A DNA stretch of 14,136 nt from contig JAYENX010000059.1 in assembly GCA_034722435.1 (NCBI GenBank), positions 11,131 through 25,266 of the forward strand, written 5' to 3'. Within the stretch, counting starts at the first letter, position 1. Every line of letters starts with the position of its first letter. The stretch is from Nanobdellota archaeon (lineage in GTDB: Archaea > Nanobdellota > Nanobdellia > Woesearchaeales > JAHWHD01). The position numbers were made by a program, and so were the translations under genes. Below are positions 1 through 14,136 of the stretch, in pieces. A model generated the notes under the pieces. That model saw nothing but the letters and a program-made list of their open reading frames with translations. It did not search any database and was not told the DNA's origin.

Positions 1-828
1 GTTGATTATGATGATTCGGATTGTCCGTGTGATTATACGTTTATTATTTGGCAGGACCTGGATGGAGATGGGCATGGAGATTCTACTGTTTCAAGAGAGG
101 TTTGTGTGATATTTGGTGATATTTTTATTCCTGAACCTGTTCCTACTTGTGCTGATGGTATTGAGTATTGTTTGACTTCTGGCGATTGTATTGCTAATGG
201 TTATTATTGGTATAATGATATTTGTAATGTTGTTCCTGAACCTACTTGTGCTGATGGTATTGAGTATTGTTTGACTTCTGGCGATTGTATTGCTAATGGT
301 TATTATTGGTATGATGATATTTGTAATGTTGTTCCTGAACCTACTTGTGCTGATGGTATTGAGTATTGTTTAACTTCTGGTGATTGTATTACTAATGGTT
401 ATTATTGGTATGATAATGATTGCCATACTGTTCCTGAACCTGTTCCTACTTGTGCTGATGGTGTTGTATATTGTTTGACTTCTGGCGATTGTATTGCTAA
501 TGGTTATTATTGGTATGATAATGATTGTCATGCTGTTCCTGAACCTTTGATTTGTTGTAATCCTGGTCCTAGTGCAGATAATCGTGATTATGATATATGT
601 CAAGGTGGAAGTATAGTATTAGGTTGTAATTCTAAAAGTACTCAATATGATCAAGCAGCAGCAATTGCAAATTGTATAGCTTCACGTACTAAATATGATT
701 CATCACTACCTTTAAGCACATGGATTTATGCATGTGAAACAAATTGGGATTATCATTATTGTAGTGATATAACTAGAACTGGTTCACCAGTTGAACCTTA
801 TTGTATGGTGCAAGAAGCAGCAGATTAA
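1..828 (+). CDS. 5'-truncated Cys/Asp-rich surface protein with a PF11617-like DxDGDG motif, four tandem 33-aa Cys repeats and a unique C-terminal domain
   Basis: The frame of ORF 106..828 stays open back to the window edge and reads LDYDDSDCPCDYTFIIWQDLDGDGHGDSTVSREVCVIFGD..., so GTG106 is probably an internal Val and the gene starts upstream. W-x-D-x-D-G-D-G-x-G matches the start of the 'putative metal-binding motif' (PF11617). Stop TAA at 826-828. Confidence 0.85.
   Translation, partial: VDYDDSDCPCDYTFIIWQDLDGDGHGDSTVSREVCVIFGDIFIPEPVPTCADGIEYCLTSGDCIANGYYWYNDICNVVPEPTCADGIEYCLTSGDCIANGYYWYDDICNVVPEPTCADGIEYCLTSGDCITNGYYWYDNDCHTVPEPVPTCADGVVYCLTSGDCIANGYYWYDNDCHAVPEPLICCNPGPSADNRDYDICQGGSIVLGCNSKSTQYDQAAAIANCIASRTKYDSSLPLSTWIYACETNWDYHYCSDITRTGSPVEPYCMVQEAAD
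142..546 (+). repeat. Intragenic tandem repeat, 4 copies of about 99 nt (units start at 142, 241, 340, 445), encoding PTCADG(I/V)xYCLTSGDCIxNGYYWYxxxCxxVPE
   Basis: Read directly. Copies 1 and 2 differ at one base (AAT/GAT). Copy 3 is 105 nt because of an extra CCTGTT (Pro-Val). Each unit has 4 Cys. Confidence 0.97.
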
Positions 829-830
829 GA

Positions 831-2360
831 ATGAAGAAAATAATTATTATTGGAATTTGTATGATGGTTTTGTTAGTTAGTGTTGTTAGTGCTGGAGAAG
901 TTCTAATCGAAGGGTTTGAAAATAATGCAGATTGGGATGGGTGGCAAGGACATTTTAGAACAGCAACACATACGCAAGGATCTTATGCAATATCACTTCA
1001 AAAAACAACTACCAGTAGTTGGGCAACAATGATGGCCAAAAGTATAAGCCCGTTAGATTTATCTTCATACACTTCTTTTAGTATAGATTATTATGTTAAT
1101 CAACCATTATCAGTAATTGGTTTATATCTAGAAGATTCAGATACTATTTGTGCTTGGTTTAAATTAGCAGGTCATATAAACGGATGGAATACTTTTTCTT
1201 TTACTCCAAGTACACCGGCATGTTACATACCTGGTACAGGCATTAGTGTACCAGTAAGTGATTTAGATTATAATAATATTATAAGCATAGACACTTACTA
1301 CAGTACAGGCTCAACAGCAACAAACACTAATGGAATATATTTTGATAATTTTATAGGCACAATTCCTTGTGCATGTACAGGCACCTCATGTAACCCTGCA
1401 AACAACGGTCAGAAATGTGATGGTTGTATTTGGGTTAGTGCGCCTGCTGAAGTTTGTGGTGATGGTGTTGATAATGATTGTGATGGTCTGATTGATGAAG
1501 ATTGTAATGTTGATCCGGTAGGTAATTTAGATGGAGCTAATTGTGAAGGTATTTGGGGTTGGGCAAGAGATCCTGATTATCAAGCAGCGGGAGAGTATAT
1601 TGATGTACATTTTTATGCTGATGGTCCTGCGGGAACTGGTACTTATATTGGTGCTGTAACTGCTAATCAACCTTCTGAAGTAGGAGTTGGTGGTAATGGT
1701 AATCATCGTTATAGTTTTTTAACGCCAGTTAGTGTTTTAGATGGTATGTCACATGATGTTTATGTTTATGCTATTAATAATCCTTCAGGGAATAATCCCG
1801 TTCTTACAGGTTCTCCAAACACTATTACTCCTGTTGCTGAAATATGTGATAATGGTTATGATGATGATTGTGATGGGTTAGTTGATTATGATGATGTTAT
1901 TGATTGTTGCATATGTTCAGCGGTTGGTTGCGTTGATGTTATTAATCAACCAGGAGTGAGTTGTAACGGTTGTAATTTTGTTGTTGATGAAACGTGTGTT
2001 GAGAGTGGCTGGGTTAATATTGGTGATGATTGTGATGATACTAATCCTGATATTTATGCTGGTGCACCTGAACTTTGTGACGGGATAGATAACCAGTGTA
2101 GTGGTGATGTTGGATATGGAGAAATAGATGAAGGGTGTGATGTTGAGGATACTTCAATTACTGATTGTGGTTTTCGTTTGAATAATGGAACTGAAACTAT
2201 TACAATTGCGTGTGAAGCAGAAATTGCAACATCTCCTGCGAGAGTTTATAAAAATAGTAAAATCTGGGGTCTGGTATTAGTTGATATTACTGACTCGAGT
2301 GCGACACAGTTTAGAGTACAGACTAAAGATGGCGTGAAAGCTTTGATGAGGTTTTCATGA
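831..2360 (+). CDS. Secreted modular surface protein: signal peptide, carbohydrate-binding-module-like beta-sandwich, PF11617-like motifs, Ig-like 'GWAxDPD' domain, small C-terminal beta domain
   Basis: Start moved from 801 to ATG831, 2 nt after the upstream stop, which gives a classic signal peptide MKKIIIIGICMMVLLVSVVSA. Motifs: DLSSYTSFSIDYY...GIYFDNF (CBM/galactose-binding-like); EVCGDGVDNDCDGLIDE, EICDNGYDDDCDGLVD and DCDDTNPDIYAGAPELCDGIDNQC (PF11617-like); PVGNLDGANCEGIWGWARDPD...HDVYVYA (Ig-like). Confidence 0.85.
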   Translation: MKKIIIIGICMMVLLVSVVSAGEVLIEGFENNADWDGWQGHFRTATHTQGSYAISLQKTTTSSWATMMAKSISPLDLSSYTSFSIDYYVNQPLSVIGLYLEDSDTICAWFKLAGHINGWNTFSFTPSTPACYIPGTGISVPVSDLDYNNIISIDTYYSTGSTATNTNGIYFDNFIGTIPCACTGTSCNPANNGQKCDGCIWVSAPAEVCGDGVDNDCDGLIDEDCNVDPVGNLDGANCEGIWGWARDPDYQAAGEYIDVHFYADGPAGTGTYIGAVTANQPSEVGVGGNGNHRYSFLTPVSVLDGMSHDVYVYAINNPSGNNPVLTGSPNTITPVAEICDNGYDDDCDGLVDYDDVIDCCICSAVGCVDVINQPGVSCNGCNFVVDETCVESGWVNIGDDCDDTNPDIYAGAPELCDGIDNQCSGDVGYGEIDEGCDVEDTSITDCGFRLNNGTETITIACEAEIATSPARVYKNSKIWGLVLVDITDSSATQFRVQTKDGVKALMRFS

Positions 2361-2375
2361 TGGTTAATTTATGTA

Positions 2376-2443
2376 AATTTAAAATTATAATTATTAGGGG
2401 TGTATCATAATGAAAAATAAAAAATTTAAACAATTATCTCATG
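2376..2443 (+). repeat. Duplicated leader, copy 1: AATTTAAAATTATAATTAT, RBS, then ATGAAAAATAAAAAATTTAAACAATTATCTCATG
   Basis: 2410-2443 is identical (34/34 nt) to 3584-3617. 2376-2394 matches 3548-3566 at 18 of 19 nt. Confidence 0.93.
2396..2402 (+). promoter_or_regulatory. Putative ribosome-binding site AGGGGTG
   Basis: Lies 7 nt upstream of ATG2410 and resembles the archaeal GGAGGTGA consensus. Confidence 0.55.
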
Positions 2444-3549
2444 TTGAAGCTGTTGTATTTACAGCGATAGGCTTTTTAGTGGTTGCCGCTATATATGTAG
2501 GTGCTACCGGTTATATTGCAGGTACTCCTTCGCATAGTACTTTGTATGTTGATACTATTACTGGTAAAAGTGGAGGTACTGTTACTGTTCAGGATAATTT
2601 AGATGTTGTAGGTAGTCTTACAAGCGTAGGTACTATTTGTGATGCAAGCGGTTGTATTGGTTCGGCTGGTTCAACTTGGTTTGATGATGGTGTTAATGTT
2701 TATCGAGATACTGGTAATGTTGGAATTGGTACAACTTTGCCTTTAACAAAATTGGATATTAGTGGTAATCAGATTAATACGTTTACTGGCGCTACACGAG
2801 GAATATTAACATTACAAGCTCCGTATGTTGCGGGTAGTTATACTGCGCTTGATTTTCTTTATGGTATAGATTCTGTTCCTACTGCGAGAATTGCTGCGTA
2901 TCATGATGGTACGGGTTCAAGATTGGTTTTAGGAACTTCTAATAATTATGCAACAGGTATTACTAATGAAGCTTTGACTATTAATAATGCGGGTAATGTT
3001 GGTATTGGGACAAGTACTCCTGATAATAAATTAGAAGTTGATGGTGCTATTGAAATACAGGTAGAAGATGCGGATAGCAGGTTACGGTTTCATGATCCTA
3101 ATAATGTTTGGTACTCAATGGGTATTGATGTTTCTGATGGTAGAAAGTTTAAGATTAATAATGGTGGGAGTGTTGGTGAAACTGCTGGTCTAGTTTTGGA
3201 TACTTCGGGTAGAGTAGGTATTGGAACGACTGCACCTGCTCAGAAGTTAGATGTTGCTGGAAATATAAAAGCATCCGGTACTGTTTGTGACGGTTCTAAT
3301 AATTGTTTGAATAATGTAGGTGGCGGTGGCGGAATTACTGCGACTACAACTGATTCAGTGACTTGTACTAGTGGTGTGTTTAGCTCAAGTACTTGTTCAG
3401 TTGTTTGTCCTGCTACTTATTATCGAACAGGGTGTTCGGGAACATATGGTCCTATACCTATTTCAAGAGGATGTCAGGTAACAGTGCCGGGTCATTGTAG
3501 TGATTGTACTCCGAATAGAGCTACAATCTTTGTTTATTGTGCGAAGTAA
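2410..3549 (+). CDS. Membrane-anchored or secreted tail-fibre-like protein with three GxVGIGT repeats and a Cys-rich C-terminal tip
   Basis: Basic N-terminus followed by a hydrophobic helix (AVVFTAIGFLVVAAIYVGA). Repeats GNVGIGTTLPLTKLDISG, GNVGIGTSTPDNKLEVDG and GRVGIGTTAPAQKLDVAG. Two GTxCDxSxxC motifs. A Gly5 linker (3319-3333) precedes an 8-Cys terminal domain. Confidence 0.85.
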   Translation: MKNKKFKQLSHVEAVVFTAIGFLVVAAIYVGATGYIAGTPSHSTLYVDTITGKSGGTVTVQDNLDVVGSLTSVGTICDASGCIGSAGSTWFDDGVNVYRDTGNVGIGTTLPLTKLDISGNQINTFTGATRGILTLQAPYVAGSYTALDFLYGIDSVPTARIAAYHDGTGSRLVLGTSNNYATGITNEALTINNAGNVGIGTSTPDNKLEVDGAIEIQVEDADSRLRFHDPNNVWYSMGIDVSDGRKFKINNGGSVGETAGLVLDTSGRVGIGTTAPAQKLDVAGNIKASGTVCDGSNNCLNNVGGGGGITATTTDSVTCTSGVFSSSTCSVVCPATYYRTGCSGTYGPIPISRGCQVTVPGHCSDCTPNRATIFVYCAK

Positions 3550-3617
3550 TTTAAAATTGTAATTATATTATAGGTGATTCATGATGAAAAATAAAAAATT
3601 TAAACAATTATCTCATG
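3548..3617 (+). repeat. Duplicated leader, copy 2 (overlaps the stop codon of 2410..3549)
   Basis: AATTTAAAATTGTAATTAT at 3548-3566 plus a 34-nt coding start identical to 2410-2443. Confidence 0.93.
3572..3578 (+). promoter_or_regulatory. Ribosome-binding site AGGTGAT
   Basis: Close match to the archaeal SD. It is 5 nt from ATG3584 and only 2 nt from ATG3581, which favours 3584 as the start. Confidence 0.7.
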
Positions 3618-4759
3618 CAAAGGTGCTGGTTTTAGTGTCTATTGCTTTTTTAATTATAGCTGCAGTTTTTGTATCTGCAGAATATACTAGCGTTCCTAAA
3701 GGTGGGCATACTGCCGATAAAATAGTTGTGCTAGATAAGGATGGCGTTCAAAAGTCTTTACAGCAGTCTATTGATGAACAAACTTTATCTTCAGGTTTTG
3801 ATGGAGGTATAATCGAAGCTGATGCAGGTATTTTTTCAAAGTCGGATGATGGTTGTAATGCGGGTTATGTAAACATTTGGGACAGTTCTGATAACCGTGG
3901 TTGGCAGTTAGTTAATAGGCAAGCTGGTTGTGGTGTTGCGAATGATGCTTTGAATTTTTTCTTTTATGACGGTGCTGCTTGGTTACATAGAATGACTATG
4001 TTACCTGACGGGAATGTTGGGATAGGTACTGGTAATCCGGCTGCTAAGTTAGAAACTAATTTAGTTAATTCTGATGGTTGGTCAGGAAATACAAAAGCTT
4101 TGAGGATATCATCTCCTGATAATAATTATTATTTAGATTTGGATACTTATGTTGTTGGTGCAGGAAATGTTGGTTATCATTTTTCTCCTAATAATAATGC
4201 TGGTTTAGTAGTTACCACTCCTGGTGATGTGGGTATTGGAACAACTGCTCCGGGTGCAAAACTTGATGTGCAGGGTAATTTGAAGGTGGTTAATCATTAT
4301 TTTGATGCTGATGATGATAGTTGGTTAAGGCTTAGAACTTCTAATGGTGGCGCTTATAAAGATCTTGCAGTTGGACAATTATATTCAGCTACTGGAATCA
4401 CTCTTGGTGGAGTTCATAGGAATTCATGGCCTTCTGGTTGTGAATTAGCTTGGGTTGGTAGTACTTCATATGCTTTTGTTCCTATGAATGTACCTTCGAG
4501 ATGTAGTTCTGGTTGTGAGCTTAAGATTTTTTATACGCCTTACACAGCAGGAATTTCTGCAGTGACTTATTTGCGATATTCGGGTAATACTTGGATATCT
4601 GAAACGGGAGGAGGAACTAATGGGGATATTACTCCCTCTCTTATTGCTAGTTTAGCTAGACTTTGGCTTTATGATGATTATAGTGCTACTGAAACTTCGT
4701 CAACGCAATGGACTGTCCGTACTCAAACAGGAATAACGGGGTATATTTATGCTTGTTAA
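3584..4759 (+). CDS. Paralogous tail-fibre-like protein with two GxVGIGT repeats and a different C-terminal domain
   Basis: Same MKNKKFKQLSH start, then a hydrophobic helix. Repeats GNVGIGTGNPAAKLE and GDVGIGTTAPGAKLDVQG. ITLGGVHRNSWP precedes a roughly 107-aa tip with no visible similarity to that of 2410..3549. Confidence 0.85.
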   Translation: MKNKKFKQLSHAKVLVLVSIAFLIIAAVFVSAEYTSVPKGGHTADKIVVLDKDGVQKSLQQSIDEQTLSSGFDGGIIEADAGIFSKSDDGCNAGYVNIWDSSDNRGWQLVNRQAGCGVANDALNFFFYDGAAWLHRMTMLPDGNVGIGTGNPAAKLETNLVNSDGWSGNTKALRISSPDNNYYLDLDTYVVGAGNVGYHFSPNNNAGLVVTTPGDVGIGTTAPGAKLDVQGNLKVVNHYFDADDDSWLRLRTSNGGAYKDLAVGQLYSATGITLGGVHRNSWPSGCELAWVGSTSYAFVPMNVPSRCSSGCELKIFYTPYTAGISAVTYLRYSGNTWISETGGGTNGDITPSLIASLARLWLYDDYSATETSSTQWTVRTQTGITGYIYAC

Positions 4760-4798
4760 TAATAAAATTATTGTGAAAATTTTGAAAATGAAATTCAG

Positions 4799-7700
4799 AT
4801 GAAAAAATTATTTATTTTTGGAATTTGTATCTTTGTTTTGTTAGTGTTAAGTATGAATGTTTTTGCGGCTGAGGAGGTTATTGAGTATTTATCGGGTTCA
4901 AACTCGTTTACTTTTTATAGTGTGGGTGATAGAGTTTGGAGGTCTCATACTTTGTTTAAGATGGGTAGAGATTGGCAAAATATTCGTAGTTGTACTGGTG
5001 CATTAAGTGTTCAACATCAATCAATAGGTGCGGTGTCATCGGCTTTTAATTATCATTGGACTGGTACTTATTTTTATGAAAGTCCTGATATCACTGCGTA
5101 TAATGCTGGTGGCGGCTATGGAATTTCCTATAAATATTATACTCATATGATTCCTGTTTTGTCAAAGAATTATGCCTCTTCTTATAACCAAATGTGGGTT
5201 ACCAGTGTAGATAGATTGGGAGATGGATATTTGTACATGGTTCTTTGGGATGCAAGTGCGATAGGTGGTAGATGGCACGTTGTGAATTATAACTGGAACT
5301 GTCAATCTGTACAGTATAGATATTATAGAGATGCTGATGCTGATGGTTATGGAAATCCTAGTGTTAGTGTTGTTGCTCCGAGTAGGCCGGCGGGGTATGT
5401 AGATAATAAATTAGATTGTAATGATGGGAATTTTAATGTTAAACCGGGTGCAATCGAGATTTGTAATGGAATAGATGATAATTGTGTTAATGGTGTGGAT
5501 GAAGGAGGTATCTGTCCAACTTTAACTTATTATTGTGATAACGATAATGATGGTTATATTTCTGATGTAATTAGTGGAACTTGTGCGTCATTTAATTGTG
5601 TGCCTGCTGGTTGTGTTGAAGTGCAAGGTAGTGATTGTGATGATACTTTATTTGCAATTAATCCTGGTGTCAATGAATTGTGTGATGGTATAGATAATAA
5701 TTGTGTTAACGGTGTGGATGAAGAGAATGCAGCTGATTGTATTAATTATTATGAAGATACTGATTTAGATGGATATGGGGAGAATGTAAGGTGTATGTGT
5801 GCACCTGAAGATCCTTATAATGTTCTTCAGGGTGGAGATTGTATGGATACTTTTGATTTAGTTAATCCTGGTATGCCTGAGGCTTGTGACTGGGTTGATA
5901 ATGATTGTGATGGCGAGGTTGATGAGAATTGTGGTGGTGCGTGCACTGTTCGAGAGACGTGTGAAACTAATGAAAACGATATATTTCATATACATAATGT
6001 GATTGATGGTCATGCAGAGCTTAATAATGAAACAAATTTTGATTGGAAAGTTTGTTGTGTTAATATTACTAGTTCAATAGTTTACGGACAGGAAGAGATT
6101 CTTGGTTTTTCTGATTCAACAGAGGCGCATGTTGAAGTTAATACAGAAACTAATTTTCCGTTTAGATTATATTTAGATGCGCCAGATGGTGCTCTTGATT
6201 GTATATACTCAACAGTTTGTGCAGCACCTAATGTTTGTGTTGCGGGTATAAGTCCTGGTGATACTGAGTTACATGTTGGAACTTGTGATAATCAGGATAA
6301 TAAAGTTTGTTGTGATTTTGTACCTCTTATAGGGGCTTGTTCTATAAGGACAGATTGTGAAGTGACTGAGAACGATCTCTTTCATATTTCTGATTTGGTT
6401 GATGCTCATGCAGGTCTTAATACAGAGACTGAGTTAGAGTATAAAGTTTGTTGTGAAGGTATTGTGTCTAGTACAGTGTCCGGTCAGAATGAAGTTCTTG
6501 GGTTGTCAGATGTTACAGATGCGCATATTGAAAAGAATACTGAATTTAATTATCCTAATAGAATTTTTTTAAGTGCTGAGACGGGCGTTTTAGATTGTTA
6601 TTATTCAAATGTTTGCGAGTTACCTAGTGCCTGTGTGATTGGAATTGCCGAGGGTGATACTAATACTCATGCGGGTAGTTGTGCTAGTTACGATGAAAAG
6701 TTGTGTTGTGATTTAACTGAGTGTATTGATGTTGATAGAGATGGTTATTCTGTTGAAGGTGGACTTTGTGGACCTGTTGATTGTGATGATACTAATCCTA
6801 ATATTAATCCTGGTAAGGCTGATGTTTGTAATGGTATAGATGATGATTGTAATGTTACAACTGTAGATGGTTCAGGTGAACCTGCCCCTTTAAACTCTTT
6901 ACAGAATGGTGTGTGTACTGGTTCAAGGCAAGTCTGTAATGGGGTAGTTGGTTGGCAGGGAGATTATGGTATACCTAATTATGAAATTGTTGAAAGTTTA
7001 TGTGACGGTCTTGATAATGATTGTGATGGCGATGCTGATGAAGTTTGTGATGTTTGTTCAGTTAAGAGTTCGTGTTATGCAATTGAATATGAAATTTTGA
7101 ATTTTGATAAAAGAAGGGATGCGCATGTTGAACTTCCAAGTTATCCTAATTTTAATAATGTACTTTGCTGTAGAGATGTTGATTATTCAATAATTTCAGG
7201 TGACCAGAAAGTTTTAGGGCTTTCAGCTGAGAATGATGCGCATGTTCAGAAAGAATTTGTTGAAACTTATGTAGTGGATTTTTATCTTGACTCGCAAATT
7301 CCTGGAATGGCAGTAAATTGTAGTTATCGTGATACTTGTGTCGGTGTTGAATTTTGTGTACTTTCGTTAAGTGCGGGTGATACTGATTTACATGTTGCAA
7401 GTTGTGAACCTGCTGAATCTTTTACAACTAAACTTTGTTGTGAACATGTAGTAGGTTGTGATGATTTTGATGGTGATGGTTACGGTATAGGTGATGATAG
7501 AGCTGGTTGTGTGAACGGAGATGCTATTGATTGTGATGATGATACTAGCGATGACCCTGTAGGTTGTCCTTTAGACTCTGCATCTTGTACGGTTGCTACT
7601 CAAGATTGTGCAATATGTATATATCCTGGTTATCAAAATATTACTGATGTGTTTGGTTATGGGGATGTAGGCAGGTGTCAAGTACAAATGGATACTTGTA

Positions 7701-8752: not shown

Positions 8753-9224
8753 GAAAGGGTTTAGCATTTTTACACTTGATTCGATTGTAGCTGTTTCTAT
8801 AATTGCAGTGGGTATTATACTTGTATTCTTCAGGATAAGTGCTTTTGAACCCGTACAGAAGCCAACGCTTGATGCTGGTCAGAACTTTTTTACATTTATA
8901 TCAAAAGTTAAAATGGAGAATGCGCAGATTGGTATAGTTCCCGGAGTTAATCCTGAACTTCTCGTAATTGAACAGCTTGGTGAGTTTTATCATAAAGGGG
9001 ATGTGGTTGCAGCTGTTATGTTATTAAATTTGTTAGGTGATAAAATTATATCGCCTGATTTGGGTGTTCAGATTAATATTGATGATCCTCCTGTACTTAT
9101 ATACGGCTCAGAACCGCCTGAAGATGTTACATTACTTATCCCTTTTAGAAAGATTGTGTATGGGTCAATTGGTAAAGGTGATTTTTATTCATATGTTGTT
9201 GAGGTGTTGGTTTGGCAAAAATGA
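8742..9224 (+). CDS. Type IV pilin-like (class III signal peptide) protein, probable minor pilin
   Basis: Start moved from 8709 to ATG8742, giving MRNKKG^FSIFTLDSIVAVSIIAVGIILVFF: a basic N-region, Gly at -1 and a hydrophobic helix. It overlaps the upstream stop by 11 nt and ends in a beta-strand (YSYVVEVLVWQK). Confidence 0.8.
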   Translation: MRNKKGFSIFTLDSIVAVSIIAVGIILVFFRISAFEPVQKPTLDAGQNFFTFISKVKMENAQIGIVPGVNPELLVIEQLGEFYHKGDVVAAVMLLNLLGDKIISPDLGVQINIDDPPVLIYGSEPPEDVTLLIPFRKIVYGSIGKGDFYSYVVEVLVWQK

Positions 9225-10270
9225 ATAAGAAAGGTATGCTTTTTTCAATCATGGCAGTTATCTTAATAGCTTTTTTTATATCTTCAATACCGCCTCCGCA
9301 AGAAGCGTTTATAGGTGATAATGGTCCGGATCTTCTTAAAGTTGAAAGTTTGAATAGTTTAATTCTTGATTTGGATAGTGCTTATTTAGATAGTTTATTG
9401 GTTGCAATTTCTGAACAAGCCATTAATGCATCTATTGAATATGTGTATAGAAAAGAGGATAATGTTATTGATGTGGATGAGACTTTTTTTGATGTTTTAA
9501 TCAATGGTACGATAGAAGACGATATTTATTTGCAAAATGCTTTGCCTGAACGAATGGATGAGCTTGCTGATTTTATATATTTAGTTGAAGGGGTTGATTT
9601 TGTTTATAATATACATAATGTTGAACTTTATCAACAAGATGTTTGGGATTTAGAAGTAGTTCTTAACATGAGCTATGCAATAAAATCTAACGTGGCAGTA
9701 TGGGGTAGAACTATTTTAGTTAATTCAACAGTCGATATTAGAGGGTTTCAGGATCCTTTGCTTAAAAGGTTAGGTGTTAATAGGACAATTAATAATTTTT
9801 TTGAAGATAATGTTGAGACTAATTGGTACTCTGAGCCTGAAAATATCTGGACATATGATCGTTTTAAAGAGATGTTTTCTTCATCGTTAGTAGCGCCCAG
9901 TACTGGAGCGCCTGATTTTTTGGACAGGTTAAGAGGTGATTTTGATTCTGATTCTGTATATGGATATGAAGGGTTTTTGAATGCTAGTGATGTTGATACT
10001 TTAATTTCTTTAGGTGTTGATGTGGATATGCATGTTGACCATCTTTATGATGAAAAGAAGTATGCCTATATATTTGATGATTCTGATACAGGTTATCTTC
10101 AAGATTTTAAAAAACCACCTTATGAATTTTTAATACATGATTCAAGATTGAATGATTATAATCTTTGTGATAAAGATATAGTAATGCCTGCAGACCCAAT
10201 TGGAAGTCCTGGAGATAGGGAATGGGCAGATGCTTGTCCTAACTATGGAAATCCTTATTATCCTAGATAA
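9212..10270 (+). CDS. Larger type IV pilin-like (class III signal peptide) glycoprotein-like protein
   Basis: NKKG^MLFSIMAVILIAFFISS. The start is either TTG9212 (GAGGTG at 9201-9206) or ATG9221 (ATGA overlap with the upstream stop). Six N-x-S/T sequons (NAS, NGT, NMS, NST, NRT, NAS). The DPL...NRTI and APxFLxRLxG segments recall DPANN pilin-cluster proteins (from memory, unverified). Confidence 0.75.
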   Translation: MAKMNKKGMLFSIMAVILIAFFISSIPPPQEAFIGDNGPDLLKVESLNSLILDLDSAYLDSLLVAISEQAINASIEYVYRKEDNVIDVDETFFDVLINGTIEDDIYLQNALPERMDELADFIYLVEGVDFVYNIHNVELYQQDVWDLEVVLNMSYAIKSNVAVWGRTILVNSTVDIRGFQDPLLKRLGVNRTINNFFEDNVETNWYSEPENIWTYDRFKEMFSSSLVAPSTGAPDFLDRLRGDFDSDSVYGYEGFLNASDVDTLISLGVDVDMHVDHLYDEKKYAYIFDDSDTGYLQDFKKPPYEFLIHDSRLNDYNLCDKDIVMPADPIGSPGDREWADACPNYGNPYYPR

Positions 10271-10454
10271 TTATATGGTTTTTAGAAAGGGTTAACATTT
10301 AAATGAATAATAAATTATGTTCTGTGGAAAGTTTTTTGTTCAAAGTTGTTGAGTAATAAATTAAGATATCTGTGCATTATAATTAATCGCTTTTTATGTA
10401 TTATGATAGATAATGTTTTCGCTGTGCTTTTTTATTAAACTTTAATTAATCACT

Positions 10455-11477
10455 TTAAATAAGTCCTGCGAAGATTAGTGCAAGACCTTCTGAAAATATT
10501 AAGAATAAACCAACAGATCCTAGTATGAATAATGGGATGTATTTAATACCGCCAATTATCTTTTCTTTGCTTATTATTGAGATTATCATTGAAGAGAATA
10601 ACGAAATAACCATAATGGCAAGGTATGAAAATTTCTTAAATTCCATGGGGTCAATACTTAAGTTCGTAATAGCTGAAAGAATTGATAATGAACCGAATGA
10701 TGCAGCCCCTCCCGGGATAACTATTTTAGCTGCTATTTTTGAAACTATAAGTAGAAGGTTGTAAGATAGAGCGAATAAAAATGGTGCGATTACCACTACT
10801 ATACTTGTGATGAAAATTACATAAGATAATGAAGCAGCTTGCATTTCTTTTTTTAGATAAATAGTTTGTTCAATATTTTCTACAACTCTGTTGATTATAT
10901 TAGCAAGTTCACCACCTGACCTAATACCTTCAATTATCAAGTCAATAGCTCTGTTAAGTATTAATGAATCGTATTTTTGGCTGAATTTACGTAAAGCGTC
11001 GCTAAGATCTTTACCTGTTGTTACTTGTTTAGCAGCGAGTTTAATTTCTTTTGTTAGGATACCAAATTCAGGGGTAGCACCTTCCCATAAAGCTTTATTT
11101 ATTGTCATACCTGATTCAAGGTTACTTGAAACAATGCTTAAGTAATCGGGAAGTACTTTTTCTATTTCTTTAGTACGTTTATAGTTGATCAGGTTATAGT
11201 ATTGAATATATGCGAATATTGCAATACCTATAGATATCACAATAAAAGCTGTACTTTTGAAAATGTGTTGTAACACGCTAAAGTTTTTGAATACTGTAAA
11301 TAATAAAATTGTGTCAATAATGATTGCTGCAAGAATGGCTGTTATGAATATTATTCCTATATGGTAAAATGGTGTTCTATATATTCCTCTTTTTTCAAAG
11401 AAACGTGATACTTTTAATTCTAGAAAGTTGGGTACTACAAATCTTCCTAAGACTGTTATGGTGTGTTTTAGTTTCAT
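10455..11477 (-). CDS. Type II secretion system F-family membrane platform protein (TadC/FlaJ-like)
   Basis: T2SSF signature IEKVLPDYLSIVSSNLESGMTINKAL...FGILTKEI...G.LA, with multiple TM helices on both sides. 4-nt ATGA overlap with the upstream gene. Confidence 0.9.
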   Translation of the reverse strand: MKLKHTITVLGRFVVPNFLELKVSRFFEKRGIYRTPFYHIGIIFITAILAAIIIDTILLFTVFKNFSVLQHIFKSTAFIVISIGIAIFAYIQYYNLINYKRTKEIEKVLPDYLSIVSSNLESGMTINKALWEGATPEFGILTKEIKLAAKQVTTGKDLSDALRKFSQKYDSLILNRAIDLIIEGIRSGGELANIINRVVENIEQTIYLKKEMQAASLSYVIFITSIVVVIAPFLFALSYNLLLIVSKIAAKIVIPGGAASFGSLSILSAITNLSIDPMEFKKFSYLAIMVISLFSSMIISIISKEKIIGGIKYIPLFILGSVGLFLIFSEGLALIFAGLI

Positions 11478-12340
11478 ACTATCACGGATTTTCTTTGGTT
11501 TTTATATAATGATAGGAACATTGCTTGTAAAAGTGCAAGGAAAAAAATTACAATAAGTAAATCGTTGAAAGTTATTTGGAGATTGATAAGGCTTGACATT
11601 ATGGTTGCCATTGCAATTCCTATAGATGGTACGACAACTCCAACAACAAGATAAAAAAGTGTGAGAGAGTTCATTTTTTTACTATATCTTTTGATATTTA
11701 TTTCTCCTTCGCCTGTTAACTCTTTGATAAACCTGTTCATGGCAGTACTAATATCTGTACCGATCTTTAGAGAGTTTTGCATCTCTAGTAAGATTTTAGT
11801 AAGATTGTCGGAAGGGCTTCTATCTATAGCTCTTTGTAAAGATTCGGGGATTCCCGTGCCTACTTTGATATCGTCAACTATTTCTTCAAACATGATACCT
11901 GCAGTATGGTATGAAGGGATAGCAACTTTTGAGAGCGTGTTCACTAATGTTTCTCCTGAATCGATAGAGATAAGTATATGTCTTACAAGGTATAGAAGTT
12001 GTCTGTCTATTTCTCTTTTAAGTTTTAAACTTATTACATCGGGCATTCTTAGGAAGAACCAAAATAAGAATATGAATAATACAGTGAAGCTTAACGGAAT
12101 TAAATAATAATATTGCCCTAATCTAACAATGAAAATAGATAGGATGAATGTAAGTACTATTGATAACTGTACAGAAAAAAGCAATCCTTTTTTGAAATAT
12201 TCTTCTGCGTTATATTTTGATCGGGATTTTGCTAATTTTTTTTTTAGTTTAGGGAAATATTTTCTAACTATTTCTATGATAAATAGGTTTGGTTGTTTTT
12301 TTTTTTTACGCTTTTTTTTATTAAGAAAAGATAATTTCAT
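11474..12340 (-). CDS. Type II secretion system F-family membrane platform protein (TadB-like)
   Basis: Two N-terminal TM helices; REIDRQLLYLVRHILISIDSGETLVNTL...FEEIVDDIKVGTGIPESL; C-terminal TM helices. Sits between the ATPase and a second T2SSF gene. Confidence 0.88.
   Translation of the reverse strand: MKLSFLNKKKRKKKKQPNLFIIEIVRKYFPKLKKKLAKSRSKYNAEEYFKKGLLFSVQLSIVLTFILSIFIVRLGQYYYLIPLSFTVLFIFLFWFFLRMPDVISLKLKREIDRQLLYLVRHILISIDSGETLVNTLSKVAIPSYHTAGIMFEEIVDDIKVGTGIPESLQRAIDRSPSDNLTKILLEMQNSLKIGTDISTAMNRFIKELTGEGEINIKRYSKKMNSLTLFYLVVGVVVPSIGIAMATIMSSLINLQITFNDLLIVIFFLALLQAMFLSLYKNQRKSVIV
12296..12319 (-). repeat. Homopolymer tracts A12 (12296-12307) and A8 (12312-12319) on the coding strand near the start of the TadB-like gene; A10 also at 12236-12245
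   Basis: Read directly as T runs on the + strand. They encode KKKRKKKK and KLKKKL. Confidence 0.85.
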
Positions 12341-13800
12341 TTTTGATAATATTTTGCCATTATAAGACCTATTTCGTTAACATCAGATATTTTTTTCTTG
12401 ACTAAATCTTTTAATATATTCATTTTGTCTATTTGATCTTTTTTTATCTCTTGTGGTGTGAATCCCGTATATAGGTTAAGAGTGTCCATGAATGTTTTTG
12501 AACGGTTCATTTTTCTGAATATGTCTCGTTTAGGGTCGTGTTGAATTAGAACGTTGGCGTCTCCAGTTTCGAGAATTTCTGCAACTTGTAAAGTTCTTCT
12601 AATTCCTGTACGTCTATTTCTGTTTTGGATGAGGAGTAGTGATAATGCAGGAAGGACTGCTTTAGGAAGGGCAATAGGGGGATTGGTAAGTCTTGATATT
12701 GTTTCTTTTGCATTGTTAGCGTGTAGCGTGCCGTATACTGAATGGCCTGTTTGCATAGCTTCCATAAGTACTTCTGCTTCTTTTTTTCTTCTTATTTCTC
12801 CCACTATAATTCTATCAGGTCTCATTCTTAATGAGTTTACAACAAGGTCGAGCATTGTAACTCCTCCCTTACCTTCAGGGTTTGGTTCACGAGTTTGCAT
12901 AGGGACCCAGTGTAAGTTTTTCGGAAGTGTAATTTCTCTTGTATCTTCAATACTGATTATTCTTTGGTTTGGTGGGAAAAAGTTTGCAATAGCGTTAAGC
13001 ATGGAAGTTTTTCCTGAAGCTGTACCTCCTGAAACTATTGTTGAGAGTTCGAATTGTACACCTTGCCAGATTATGGCTGCCACTTCAAAGCTTAATGTTT
13101 TGGCGCTTAAGAAATCTGTCATGCTCCAAGGTTTTCTTCTAAATCTTCTTATTGTGATGGTATTTCCAAAGTCCGAGATAGGTTTCAAAGTAGCATTTAC
13201 TCTGTCACCTGTTAATAAGTGTGCATCGAGAAGAGGTTTTAAGACGGTTATCTCTTTACTAATGTCTTTAGCTATCATGGTTGCATAATGACGAATCATG
13301 TCTTCAGATTCTACTTTAATGTTAGTTTTTAACCAGCCATGTTTTTTATGGTAGACCCAGATAGGTTCTTTTGAACTGTTGATGACAATTTCTTCAAGAA
13401 ATCCGTCTTTAAGCAGTGTTTCGATATCTCCTAATCCTAGATCTTGTTGAATAATGTAGTGAGTGAGTAGTTTGTGTGAATTTTCGTTAATGTTTGGAAA
13501 ATATCTTGTAAGTAGGTTTCCAATATCTTTTTTGAACCTTTCTTTAAGTGATAATGCTTCTTCAGATTCTGTATATTTTATATGTCCTAGTTTTATTTCT
13601 GATACGAATTCATCACGAATTTTATCAAGAATTATTTGTGTAGCTGGACTGATATTTGTTATAGTTACCTTATAAGTAGGGACAAAGTCTCCTACTTTAT
13701 TGAATATGTTTACACGTACTTCAATATCGTTTACCTTGACAGTGTAAGCATCAAGCATCTTTAAAGATGTATTTTTTTTTATGTTTATCTTTTTTTTCAT
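12337..13800 (-). CDS. tadA: Type II/IV secretion (Tad/T4P) assembly ATPase, CpaF/TadA/VirB11 family
   Basis: Walker A SGGTASGKT, Asp box IISIEDTRE, LRMRPDRIIVGE (Walker B), His box TGHSVYGTLHAN, plus LEEIVINS and GDRVNATL..I....TITIRRF. Directly upstream of two T2SSF genes. Confidence 0.95.
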   Translation of the reverse strand: MKKKINIKKNTSLKMLDAYTVKVNDIEVRVNIFNKVGDFVPTYKVTITNISPATQIILDKIRDEFVSEIKLGHIKYTESEEALSLKERFKKDIGNLLTRYFPNINENSHKLLTHYIIQQDLGLGDIETLLKDGFLEEIVINSSKEPIWVYHKKHGWLKTNIKVESEDMIRHYATMIAKDISKEITVLKPLLDAHLLTGDRVNATLKPISDFGNTITIRRFRRKPWSMTDFLSAKTLSFEVAAIIWQGVQFELSTIVSGGTASGKTSMLNAIANFFPPNQRIISIEDTREITLPKNLHWVPMQTREPNPEGKGGVTMLDLVVNSLRMRPDRIIVGEIRRKKEAEVLMEAMQTGHSVYGTLHANNAKETISRLTNPPIALPKAVLPALSLLLIQNRNRRTGIRRTLQVAEILETGDANVLIQHDPKRDIFRKMNRSKTFMDTLNLYTGFTPQEIKKDQIDKMNILKDLVKKKISDVNEIGLIMAKYYQK

Positions 13801-14136
13801 CTCATATCAAGACTCTTTAATTTGATATCGTTATCAACAATCATGAGTTCTTCTTTTAGAATATTCTTAGAAATTTCATCTAGTTTGATTTTTTTGAGTT
13901 TAGATTTAATATCTCTTAAATATTTTTTTGCTTCTTTAAGTTGTTTTTTCTTGATAAGTTGTCTGCAAATAAATATCCTCTTGTTAATCTGTTGTTTATT
14001 GTTGAGACTTGTGGGAATCTTGAATGAAATCTTTTTAGGTTTTCTTTTAACTTTTTTCTTTTTGATAGGTTTTGGTTTAGTTTTCTTTATAATTGGTTTT
14101 ATTTGTTTAGTTTTTTTGATTATTGGTTTTTTATTT
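13797..14136 (-). CDS. 5'-truncated, extremely Lys-rich hypothetical protein coupled to the ATPase (absent from the ORF track)
   Basis: My translation from 14135 downward is open for 112 codons: NKKPIIKKTKQIKPIIKKTKPKPIKKKKVKRKPKKISFKIPTSLNNKQQINKRIFICRQLIKKKQLKEAKKYLRDIKSKLKKIKLDEISKNILKEELMIVDNDIKLKSLDMR*. Its TGA (13799-13797) forms an ATGA overlap with the ATPase start, the same junction used by the next two genes. Confidence 0.8.
   Translation of the reverse strand, partial: NKKPIIKKTKQIKPIIKKTKPKPIKKKKVKRKPKKISFKIPTSLNNKQQINKRIFICRQLIKKKQLKEAKKYLRDIKSKLKKIKLDEISKNILKEELMIVDNDIKLKSLDMR

What the first reader, a model, noticed from the sequence alone, without database searches (positions are those of the whole stretch)
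1..14136. Candidate DPANN host-attachment system: modular adhesin array and minor pilins converging on a Tad/T4P assembly operon
Seen: five consecutive exported Cys-rich or fibre-like genes run into two class III signal peptide proteins through 11-nt and 4-13-nt overlaps, facing a fully ATGA-coupled operon (Lys-rich protein, ATPase, two T2SSF proteins). Established: a CpaF/TadA ATPase plus TadB/TadC-type platforms assemble type IV pili from class III precursors, and DPANN archaea are mostly host-dependent. Inference: the + strand block supplies tip pilins and exchangeable adhesins for this machine, which would make a pilus-based host-recognition apparatus built from phage-fibre-like and myxobacteria-like modules. 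I am not aware of this combination being characterised. No major pilin or prepilin peptidase lies in the window.
Basis: partly seen in the sequence, partly recalled or inferred. Interest (0 to 1): 0.82.

Follow-up and report, generated by a model that had tools for sequence, protein, structure and literature searches.

The report
DPANN pilus locus with adhesin array
A tiny, probably host-dependent archaeon (Woesearchaeota-like) carries a real type IV pilus gene cluster. A variable battery of exported sticky-looking proteins has been inserted into its pilin operon, and one of them appears to carry the missing end piece of a truncated pilin, which suggests how an adhesin could be plugged onto the pilus.

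Summary
The window has five exported Cys-rich or fibre-like genes. They run through 11-nt and 4-nt overlaps into two class III signal-peptide proteins (W6, W7). These face an ATGA-coupled operon: X protein, FlaI-like ATPase and two T2SSF platform genes. The genome is archaeal, and its nearest named relatives are Woesearchaeota.

The wider contig changes the picture. Four more pilins, including the likely major pilin, lie 4-6 kb upstream on the same strand. The adhesin array therefore sits inside a roughly 16-kb pilin operon.

W6 and W7 are conserved members of a DPANN-wide pilus operon. W7 matched beside the ATPase in 12 of the 20 related genomes that had a match. In most relatives W6 carries a 750-1090-aa VWA-bearing insertion. 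Here it is short, and separate Sec-exported proteins take that place: three fibres like Bdellovibrio MAT prey-recognition fibres, plus MopE-motif proteins.

W5, the protein just upstream of W6, ends in the beta-hairpin that the local minor pilin pilD lacks. That suggests docking by strand complementation, which is an inference.

The same convergent layout occurs in two sister genomes (unpublished), so the junction is not a chimera. DPANN pilus loci and adhesin-bearing archaeal pilus loci are already described. This is a new variant, and neither host recognition nor attachment to the pilus has been shown.

The parts
1..828 (+). w1: 3' part of an exported Cys-rich protein. It has four 33-aa repeats encoded by 99-bp tandem repeats at 142-546. 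The gene starts upstream at C59:9796 with a Sec signal peptide and a propeller-like repeat region, and is interrupted by a 100-N scaffold gap.
831..2360 (+). w2: Sec-exported protein with three MopE-type motifs and 27 Cys. An alternative TTG start lies at 801.
2410..3549 (+). w3: fibre protein with a Cys-rich C-terminal tip. Its repeats are homologous to Bdellovibrio MAT fibre Bd2133 and to phage tail-fibre families. No S74 domain was found.
3581..4759 (+). w4: second fibre protein, a paralogue of w3 and of the 675-aa fibre upstream (C59:7064-9091).
4799..8752 (+). W5: 1317-aa Sec-exported protein with 91 Cys. It has MopE motifs and three roughly 130-aa Cys repeats. Its C-terminal module of about 260 aa is conserved in the orthologues of G001, G002 and L010, and its last ~180 positions also match the VWA protein of G012.
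8672..8749 (+). C-terminal tail of W5 (26 aa). It matches the last hairpin of complete pilD minor pilins of other DPANN loci. The local pilD lacks that hairpin.
8742..9224 (+). W6: short (160 aa) class III signal-peptide minor pilin. It equals the pilin part of the 919-1253-aa VWA-bearing W6 of other DPANN loci.
9221..10270 (+). W7: 349-aa class III signal-peptide protein. It belongs to a large family with no Pfam model that lies beside the pilus ATPase in relatives.
10271..10454 (.). Convergent intergenic spacer. No RNA family, repeat or stable fold was found.
10455..11477 (-). Platform protein 2 (T2SSF, TadC/FlaJ-like half).
11474..12340 (-). Platform protein 1 (T2SSF, TadB/FlaJ-like half).
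12337..13800 (-). Pilus assembly ATPase (T2SSE). It is closest to archaeal GspE/FlaI, then CpaF.
13797..14135 (-). X: C-terminal 112 aa of a conserved protein that always precedes the ATPase. In relatives it has a winged-helix-like N-terminus, a Lys-rich middle and a helical or TPR C-terminus. Here it is cut by the contig end.

Best explanation
The window is the distal two thirds of an archaeal type IV pilus locus of the two-platform-gene, Epd-like 'system 1' kind, in a Woesearchaeota-like DPANN genome.

**Shown**
- A FlaI-like ATPase, a split platform and a conserved partner protein X face a co-directional, tightly packed pilin operon of about 16 kb.
- That operon starts upstream of the window with four Q+1 class III pilins (pilA-D). 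It ends with two conserved class III proteins, W6 and W7.
- Between pilD and W6 lies a lineage-specific array of eight Sec-exported genes. They include three fibres of the Bdellovibrio MAT or tail-fibre type, several MopE-motif Cys-rich proteins and a small lipobox protein.
- In most DPANN relatives W6 carries a large VWA-bearing insertion before its last strand. Here W6 is short.

**Inferred**
- pilB-D, W6 and W7 form the priming or tip complex of a pilus made of pilA.
- W5, the exported protein translationally coupled to W6, supplies the last beta-hairpin that the truncated local pilD lacks. It would so be fastened to the tip by strand complementation.
- The fibres and the other MopE proteins are co-expressed, exchangeable binding heads. 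How they are attached is unknown.
- The likely role of the whole is attachment to a partner cell or surface.
For: **Identity**
- Pfam, NCBIfam and PDB matches identify the ATPase and platform.
- The genome has archaeal rRNA, an A24 peptidase and Woesearchaeota as nearest named relatives.

**Operon membership of W6 and W7**
- About ten public loci share the order pilB-pilC-pilD-W6-W7-X-ATPase-F1-F2-pilA.
- In 30 relatives, 14 of 25 W7 matches lie within 7 kb of the ATPase, in 12 of the 20 genomes with a match.
- The W7 profile finds 2019 cluster representatives. None of the ten representatives scanned has a Pfam model for the W7 part, and all the names seen are 'hypothetical'.

**Array inside the operon**
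- The same arrangement occurs in L010 (public), G012, and G001 and G002 (unpublished).
- The 11-nt W5/W6 overlap is kept in G001 and G002.
- In this genome the fibre genes occur only at this locus.

**Modularity**
- Long W6 has a VWA domain. It ends in the same strand as short W6.
- The short-W6 HMM covers only the N-terminal ~145 aa (about residues 14-158 in L015) of long W6.
- G012 has short W6 preceded by a Sec-exported VWA plus CarboxypepD_reg protein.

**Split pilin**
- Complete pilD ends in a conserved hairpin. In this clade pilD stops at HMM position about 125-129 of 160.
- The HMM of the W5 C-terminus hits the G012 VWA protein through to its last residue (E 1e-9). It also hits the tails of L015 and L016 pilD (E 1e-5 and 1e-4).
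- A profile-profile comparison aligns end to end (P 1.2e-4).

**Fibres**
- w3 matches PDB 8ond, Bd2133 (E 7e-9), and PHROG tail-fibre families.
Against: - The array proteins carry ordinary Sec signal peptides, not class III ones.
- MopE-motif proteins also occur at two other places in this genome.
- None of 80 metagenomic loci holding MopE relatives of W5 has a pilus gene nearby.
- Bdellovibrio MAT fibres are thought to sit on the cell surface through their own N-terminal domain, not on pili (PMC10769870).
- The tail homology is short. It spans 24-40 columns, the hhalign probability is only 55%, and the pilD-HMM hit on the G012 protein has i-E 0.06.
- The predicted folds of W6 and W7 gave no clear pilin match. 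The best Z scores were 7.7 (Cache/PDC sensors) and 5.9 (GspK), both within the tool's noise range.
- A second ATPase with a 734-aa polytopic membrane protein on contig C8, and other pilin clusters (C41), mean that the pairing of machine and pilins is not certain.
- No expression, imaging or host data exist.
Confidence: 0.6

Rival explanations
1. The pilus locus is real, but the exported Cys-rich and fibre proteins are ordinary cell-surface or S-layer-associated adhesins that merely landed in, or are co-transcribed with, the pilin operon. They are not physically part of the pilus, and the tail resemblance between W5 and pilD is convergent or trivial.
For: - The signal peptides are Sec-type.
- MopE proteins occur elsewhere in the genome.
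- In 80 metagenomic loci with MopE relatives, no pilus genes lie nearby.
- MAT fibres in Bdellovibrio are cell-surface fibres.
- The fibre family is widespread in bacteria, including Patescibacteria and Bdellovibrionota.
Against: - The array is embedded between minor pilin genes, with 4-63-nt gaps or overlaps, in four or five genomes of at least three genera.
- The 11-nt W5/W6 overlap is conserved.
- Tail-less pilD and tail-bearing exported proteins have complementary distributions: 4 of 4 loci against about 10 loci with complete pilD and no W5.
- An adhesion (VWA) module occupies the same operon position, as an insertion in W6, in other lineages.
Confidence: 0.28
2. The machine works as a secretion-type pseudopilus (type II secretion-like) or a DNA-uptake device rather than an adhesive pilus, and the neighbouring exported proteins are its cargo.
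For: - The ATPase and platform families are shared with secretion and competence systems.
- The array proteins are first exported by Sec, as type II substrates are.
Against: - No outer membrane or secretin is expected in an archaeon.
- The locus has a PilA-type pilin next to the platform genes in most relatives.
- Archaeal systems of this layout are described as adhesive pili (PMC4858521, PMC13705601).
Confidence: 0.06
3. The convergent arrangement is an assembly chimera, or the contig is bacterial or viral.
For: - There is a scaffold gap on the same contig.
- A bacterial-type sigma-70-like gene lies upstream.
- In more distant relatives the machinery is co-directional with the pilins.
Against: - The same W7-to-platform convergent junction occurs in independently assembled G001 and G002 (unpublished genomes).
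- The genome has archaeal rRNA and the contig carries Elp3.
- No relative of w3 was found in viral contigs.
- The sigma-like gene has paralogues on two other contigs of the genome.
Confidence: 0.02

Closest known systems
Archaeal type IV filament 'system 1' / Epd-like pilus (Makarova et al. 2016, PMC4858521; PLoS Genet 2026, PMC13705601)
   Same: - A FlaI/VirB11-family ATPase.
- A platform encoded by two genes.
- Several class III pilins with Gln at +1.
- Adhesin-like accessory genes.
- Reported in some Nanobdellati (DPANN).
   Different: - No dedicated peptidase lies in the part of the cluster that is held.
- W6, W7 and X match no Pfam or NCBIfam model here, and no described family was found for them.
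- A long array of Sec-exported adhesins lies inside the pilin operon.
- The ATPase's clade was not placed by phylogeny.
Conserved type IV pilus loci of cluster 2 DPANN (Hamm et al. 2024, PMC11291902)
   Same: - Two loci with a CpaF-like ATPase and TadC-like platform across Woesearchaeota and allies, one of them with PilA-type pilins.
- This genome also has two such ATPase loci, on C59 and C8.
- That paper proposes a role in host interaction.
   Different: - That paper stresses coiled-coil proteins resembling viral sigma-1.
- The passages read mention neither fibre nor MopE arrays, nor the VWA insertion in W6, nor a split pilin.
- Equivalence of its locus 1 with this locus was not tested, because its sequences were not at hand.
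Minor-pilin/PilY1 tip complex of bacterial type IVa pili and GspK of type II secretion (recalled knowledge; GspK structure 3ci0)
   Same: - A set of minor pilins is encoded together.
- A Sec-exported non-pilin adhesin is encoded within the minor-pilin operon.
- VWA modules occur.
- A large domain is inserted into a pilin fold, as in GspK.
   Different: - There is no sequence relationship.
- The structural match of W7 to GspK is weak (Z 5.9, rmsd 3.5 A, 95 residues).
- I know of no report that PilY1 docks by donating a pilin's last hairpin.
Mosaic adhesive trimer (MAT) fibres of Bdellovibrio bacteriovorus (Caulton et al. 2024, PMC10769870)
   Same: - w3 shares fibre repeats with Bd2133 (8ond, E 7e-9).
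- It is of the non-S74 type, ending in a distinct tip domain.
- There are several paralogues with different tips.
- The organism lives off other cells.
   Different: - The proteins here are much shorter (379-675 aa against about 1000).
- The tips are Cys-rich.
- They are archaeal.
- They are encoded inside a pilin operon.
- Trimer formation and the N-terminal anchor domain were not tested.
Modular type IV pilins with grafted adhesion domains, e.g. the vWA-bearing pilin of Streptococcus sanguinis (recalled knowledge)
   Same: The long W6 of DPANN relatives is a class III pilin that carries a VWA module.
   Different: - In long W6 the module is inserted before the last strand rather than appended.
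- In this genome the module is missing and separate proteins stand in its place.

Membership tests
Archaeal type IV filament system 1 (Epd-like) | FlaI/VirB11-family assembly ATPase | tested here: met
   - T2SSE at 1e-37.
- The best NCBIfam model is FlaI at 265 bits, below its equivalog cut-off.
- PDB matches: afGspE 224 bits, FlaI 194 bits, CpaF 165 bits.
Archaeal type IV filament system 1 (Epd-like) | Platform protein encoded by two genes | tested here: met
   Two adjacent T2SSF genes, ATGA-coupled.
Archaeal type IV filament system 1 (Epd-like) | Class III signal peptidase | tested here: met
   A Peptidase_A24 gene lies on contig C36 (58 bits). It is not in the cluster itself, unlike EpdA in Methanococcus.
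Archaeal type IV filament system 1 (Epd-like) | Pilins with a class III signal peptide | tested here: met
   - pilA-D have K/R-G-Q followed by a hydrophobic stretch.
- W6 and W7 have K-K-G followed by a hydrophobic stretch, conserved in homologues.
- Cleavage itself cannot be tested here.
Archaeal type IV filament system 1 (Epd-like) | ATPase falls in the system 1 clade of the ATPase tree | not tested
   No reference sequences of the named clades were at hand.
Bacterial Tad/Flp pilus | Short Flp-type major pilin | tested here: not met
   The pilins here are 135-154 aa, with a Q+1 archaeal-type signal.
Bacterial Tad/Flp pilus | CpaF/TadA ATPase plus TadB and TadC | tested here: inconclusive
   Two platform genes are present. 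The ATPase scores higher with FlaI (265 bits) than with the TadA-family model (197 bits), and both scores are below cut-off.
Bacterial Tad/Flp pilus | Secretin RcpA, TadZ and TadE/F/G pseudopilins | not tested
   Not searched. The organism is an archaeon.
Type IV pilin fold (W6, W7) | N-terminal hydrophobic helix followed by an alpha/beta globular domain resembling solved pilins | tested here: inconclusive
   - The models have pLDDT 75.6 and 79.6, each with a long N-terminal helix and an antiparallel sheet.
- Foldseek found no hit at E<=0.001.
- VIA-align best for W7: 2ia7 at Z 6.0 (putative tail lysozyme); GspK, the pilin-relevant hit, is rank 2 at Z 5.9, rmsd 3.5 A, 95 aligned.
- VIA-align best for W6: Cache/PDC sensors at Z 7.7, rmsd 2.5 A, 83 aligned.
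MAT fibre superfamily (Bdellovibrio) | Fibre repeat region homologous to solved MAT fibres | tested here: met
   - w3 against 8ond Bd2133: E 7.1e-9 over 140 residues.
- 8oml and 8on4 match at about 5e-5.
- u8 matches weakly.
MAT fibre superfamily (Bdellovibrio) | Conserved N-terminal domain of about 130 aa after the signal peptide; trimeric assembly | not tested
   No MAT N-terminal domain sequence was compared. Trimers cannot be tested with these tools.
MopE-type metal-binding motif proteins (PF11617) | Repeated PF11617 motif above the gathering score | tested here: met
   w2 scores 55 bits and W5 scores 121 bits, against a cut-off of 27.
PilY1-like non-pilin tip adhesin | VWA domain plus C-terminal propeller | tested here: not met
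   W5 has neither domain by Pfam. The equivalently placed G012 protein has VWA. The resemblance is one of position and presumed role only.

The most novel reading that the evidence does not exclude
In this Woesearchaeota family a minor pilin (pilD) has been split. Its last beta-hairpin now sits at the end of a Sec-exported, freely diversifying adhesin (W5), which snaps onto the truncated pilin at the pilus tip. MAT-type trimeric fibres, like those a bacterial predator uses to recognise prey, are co-deployed from the same operon. Together they would form a plug-in, exchangeable host-recognition head for a DPANN pilus.
Probability: 0.3. Interest if true: 0.75.

Novelty: new variant of a known kind. 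Interest (0 to 1): 0.57.

Why it matters
How DPANN archaea find and hold their hosts is largely unknown. Pili are suspected but not dissected. This locus gives concrete, testable parts:
- A conserved five-member minor-pilin set, including two large uncharacterised families: W6, and W7 with about 2000 sequence clusters and no Pfam model.
- A site in the operon where adhesion modules are swapped. It holds a VWA insertion in some lineages and separate MopE proteins and fibres in this one.
- A possible way of attaching a Sec-exported adhesin to a pilus.

It also extends the MAT-like fibre family, known from bacteria including a bacterial predator, to an archaeal symbiont-type genome.

Tried and rejected
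- **RNA and spacer.** An Rfam scan of the window found nothing. The 184-bp convergent spacer has no repeat in the genome and no stable fold. Terminator and promoter scans were at chance level.
- **W7 searches.** A word-indexed homology search with W7 found only itself; the profile search was needed. Foldseek of the W7 model against the PDB gave no hit at E<=0.001.
- **W5 against long W6.** BLASTP of W5 against long W6 gave no significant similarity. BLASTP of the W5 C-terminus against the G012 VWA protein also gave none; only the HMM showed the shared C-terminal module. The idea that long W6 is a simple fusion of short W6 plus W5 was dropped, because the gene order is reversed and no similarity was found.
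- **PDB sequence search.** W5 found nothing.
- **Viral contigs.** They hold no relative of w3.
- **Metagenome scan with W5.** It returned only motif-level MopE relatives, with no pilus genes in 855 kb of flanks.
- **'Only pilus machine in the genome.'** This idea was dropped after contig C8 showed a second ATPase beside a 734-aa polytopic membrane protein.
Full report
**What is in the window**

- Pfam and NCBIfam identify 12337-13800(-) as a T2SSE ATPase. Its best model is FlaI at 265 bits. A TadA-family model scores 197 bits. Both scores are below the equivalog cut-offs.
- 11474-12340(-) and 10455-11477(-) are T2SSF platform halves.
- The closest solved ATPase relatives are Archaeoglobus GspE (2oap, 224 bits), FlaI and then CpaF.
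- The three - strand junctions are ATGA overlaps. w5/w6 overlap by 11 nt, and w6/w7 by 4 nt from ATG 9221.
- w2 and W5 carry the MopE-type motif PF11617.
- w3 and w4 match phage tail-fibre PHROGs.
- w1 holds four 99-bp tandem repeats encoding 33-aa Cys-rich units.

**Where it lies**

The window is G000:C59:11131-25266 and ends at the contig end.
- The genome is 1.30 Mb and 94.5% complete. Its SSU rRNA is archaeal (1395 bits, full length), with an archaeal LSU beside it.
- The nearest named relatives of the ATPase are Candidatus Woesearchaeota MAGs, at 65% identity or less. Named members of the W7 family are also Woesearchaeota.
- A bacterial or viral origin is therefore excluded.

**The rest of the contig changes the picture**
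- Upstream on the same strand are four small proteins with K/R-G-Q class III signal peptides, pilA-D, at C59:5285-7056.
- They are followed by a 675-aa fibre protein, a small lipobox protein and a small membrane protein.
- Next comes an exported propeller-like protein. Its reading frame runs into a 100-N scaffold gap inside a MopE motif and continues as w1.
- From pilA to W7 all gaps are 63 nt or less, or are overlaps. The adhesin array therefore lies inside a pilin operon of about 16 kb, between pilD and W6.
- A Peptidase_A24 gene is on contig C36.

**W6 and W7 are conserved pilus-locus genes**

Twenty-two public loci were fetched around ATPase relatives. They were annotated by tblastn and by iterated HMMs.
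- They show a recurrent operon in Woesearchaeota, Micrarchaeota and Iainarchaeota MAGs: pilB, pilC, pilD, W6, W7, X, ATPase, F1, F2, pilA.
- In 30 genomes of the same order, 14 of 25 W7-profile matches lie within 7 kb of a FlaI-like ATPase on the same contig. These are in 12 of the 20 genomes with a match. Most of the other matches are on short contigs, where linkage cannot be judged.
- A W7 profile finds 2019 cluster representatives at E<=0.001 and 708 at E<=1e-30, among 1.84 billion. They are about 300-340 aa long. None of the ten representatives scanned has a Pfam model for the W7 part. All the names seen are 'hypothetical'.

AlphaFold models were built on alignments that include G001 and G002 rows.
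- W7 (pLDDT 79.6) and W6 (pLDDT 75.6) each have a long N-terminal helix followed by an alpha/beta domain.
- Fold searches were not decisive. Foldseek gave nothing at E<=0.001.
- For W7, VIA-align gave GspK at rank 2, among tied rows led by 2ia7 at Z 6.0 (Z 5.9, rmsd 3.5 A, 95 aligned). For W6 it gave Cache/PDC sensor domains (best Z 7.7, rmsd 2.5 A, 83 aligned). All are inside the noise range the tool states.

**Modularity at W6**
- In most relatives W6 is 919-1253 aa and has a VWA domain.
- Here, and in G001, G002, G012 and L010, it is 157-197 aa.
- An HMM of the short forms covers the first ~145 residues of the long forms (E 1e-20 to 1e-11).
- The long forms end in the same final strand as the short forms: a W-G-P...E-V-x-V-W-Q ending.
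- Long W6 is therefore short W6 with a 750-1090-aa insertion before its last strand.
- The long W6 query finds only the short w6 in this genome.

**What stands in its place**
- In G012 the gene before short W6 encodes a Sec-exported VWA plus CarboxypepD_reg protein.
- In G002 the W5 orthologue has five MopE motifs plus CarboxypepD_reg.
- W5 orthologues differ in length (806-1505 aa) and in their N-terminal two thirds. They share the last 260 aa or so.
- An HMM of that C-terminal module hits the G012 VWA protein from the CarboxypepD_reg domain to its last residue (E 1e-9, in a 507-protein set).
- Unexpectedly, it also hits the C-terminal tails of the pilD proteins of L015 and L016 (E 1.3e-5 and 1.5e-4).

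**The split-pilin reading**
- Complete pilD proteins (154-218 aa, eight loci) end in a conserved hairpin.
- pilD of this genome, G002, L010 and G012 aligns to the pilD HMM only up to position 125-129 of 160, so it lacks the hairpin. The G012 VWA protein matches positions 132-160 with its last 38 residues (i-E 0.06).
- A profile-profile comparison of the five tails with complete pilD aligns end to end: 24 columns, P 1.2e-4, probability 55%.
- In L015 and L016, pilD itself carries an insertion of about 215 aa before the tail.
- In the four loci where both genes can be seen, a tail-less pilD always goes with a tail-bearing exported protein. About ten loci with complete pilD have no such protein. 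These groups are phylogenetically clustered, so this is not a statistical test.
- I read this as a fission: the adhesive insertion plus the last hairpin of a minor pilin became a separate exported protein. If so, W5 could dock on pilD by strand complementation. This step is inference.

**The fibres**
- w3 matches the solved Bdellovibrio MAT fibre Bd2133 (8ond, E 7.1e-9) and two further MAT entries. u8 matches weakly.
- MAT proteins are trimeric surface fibres with swappable tips. The predator uses them to recognise prey (PMC10769870).
- Relatives of w3 are widespread in bacteria, including Patescibacteria and Bdellovibrionota. Many of them have the S74 chaperone domain, which w3 lacks.
- No relative was found in viral contigs.
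- In this genome the fibre genes occur only in this locus.
- MopE motifs also occur on C12 and C56.

**Junction and variability**

These points rest partly on unpublished genomes.
- G001 (same genus) and G002 (same family) have the same convergent layout: array, W5, W6 and W7 meeting F2, F1, ATPase and X. G002 has the whole operon from pilA.
- The junction is therefore not a chimera. This claim rests on G001 and G002. So do the conservation of the 11-nt W5/W6 overlap and the family-level identity figures. Both genomes may not be published without their depositors' permission.
- One G002-like W7 protein appears in NCBI nr as MBW3015316.1, on a contig of the same length as G002:C5.
- Identities to G001 and G002 are: ATPase 78-80%, platforms 66-73%, pilA-D 44-55%, W6 41-48%, W7 35-43%. 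Array proteins are 28-56% identical over parts only, and their gene counts differ.
- Public L010 (JBAZLJ010000001.1) and G012 show the same pilD-to-W6 insertion site, but with the machinery co-directional. An inversion or translocation of the machinery block therefore occurred in this family.

**Limits**
- In 80 metagenomic loci holding MopE relatives of W5 (855 kb), no pilus gene was found. The MopE module as such is not a pilus marker.
- The genome has a second FlaI-like ATPase followed by a 734-aa polytopic membrane protein and small coiled-coil-like proteins on C8. It also has further class III-like clusters, notably seven ORFs on C41. Which pilins each machine assembles is open.

**Comparison with the literature**
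- Two-platform-gene 'system 1' (Epd-like) filaments occur in some DPANN. Archaeal filament loci often hold adhesin-like genes (PMC13705601; PMC4858521).
- Hamm et al. 2024 reported two conserved pilus loci in cluster 2 DPANN, including Woesearchaeota, and proposed a role in host interaction (PMC11291902).
- The kind of system is thus known.
- In the papers searched I did not find the embedded MAT-like and MopE array, the VWA insertion in W6 and its loss, or the split-pilin tail.

**Verdict**

This is a real locus, correctly spotted. It is a new variant of a known kind. It offers an attractive but unproven mechanism for fixing an exchangeable adhesin to a DPANN pilus.

Noticed in passing
G000:C59:976-3456 (upstream of the window, L008 976-3456): An 826-aa ORF with bacterial Sigma70 region 2 and region 4 domains in an archaeal genome. 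Weaker paralogues lie on contigs C9 and C56.
   Followed up: partly
G000:C41:4239-14979: A second cluster of seven ORFs with class III-like N-termini (K-K-[GA]-Q then a hydrophobic run; 81-345 aa), with no ATPase or platform gene nearby. More singletons lie on C25, C38 and C36. The pilus machine(s) may serve several pilin sets in trans.
   Followed up: partly
G000:C8:22371-28097 (L130): A second FlaI/TadA-like ATPase (736-765 aa) is followed by a 734-aa protein with at least 8 predicted membrane segments and no family match. It is flanked by small coiled-coil-like proteins. This may be the 'locus 2' of DPANN pilus loci described by Hamm et al. 2024.
   Followed up: partly
L008 about 10990-11090 (just before window position 1) and window 142-546: The 100-N scaffold gap falls inside a MopE motif. 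The gene also holds four 99-bp repeats at 90% identity. Repeat collapse is likely, so the true length of this gene is unknown.
   Followed up: partly
window 2410-2520 and 3581-3690; also L044 261-833 and L046 10923-11579: The short fibre proteins share an unusual N-terminus: a basic stretch, then S-H-(V/I/A)-(E/K) just before the hydrophobic segment. In three of four proteins Glu sits five residues after a possible cut site. It is not a canonical class III signal, because no Gly or Ala is at -1. Its meaning is unknown.
   Followed up: no
L008 9091-9462; L044 821-1081; L046 10498-10926: A small Cys-rich protein with a lipobox-like signal (hydrophobic run, then G-C) is conserved inside the array in all three genomes of the family.
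   Followed up: no
window 9221-10270 and relatives: The W7 family has about 2000 clusters at 50% identity in public data. The 30 nearest ESM Atlas clusters were all archaeal. No Pfam model was found for it, so it is a candidate for a new family definition. A few members are fused to CARDB and InlB-type repeat domains (P0050, 741 aa).
   Followed up: partly
window 1-10000 versus 10000-14136: GC skew on the + strand is strongly positive (0.3-0.43) across the adhesin genes. It is near 0.04-0.13 across the - strand machinery genes. This probably reflects Gly, Asp, Val and Glu-rich coding.
   Followed up: no
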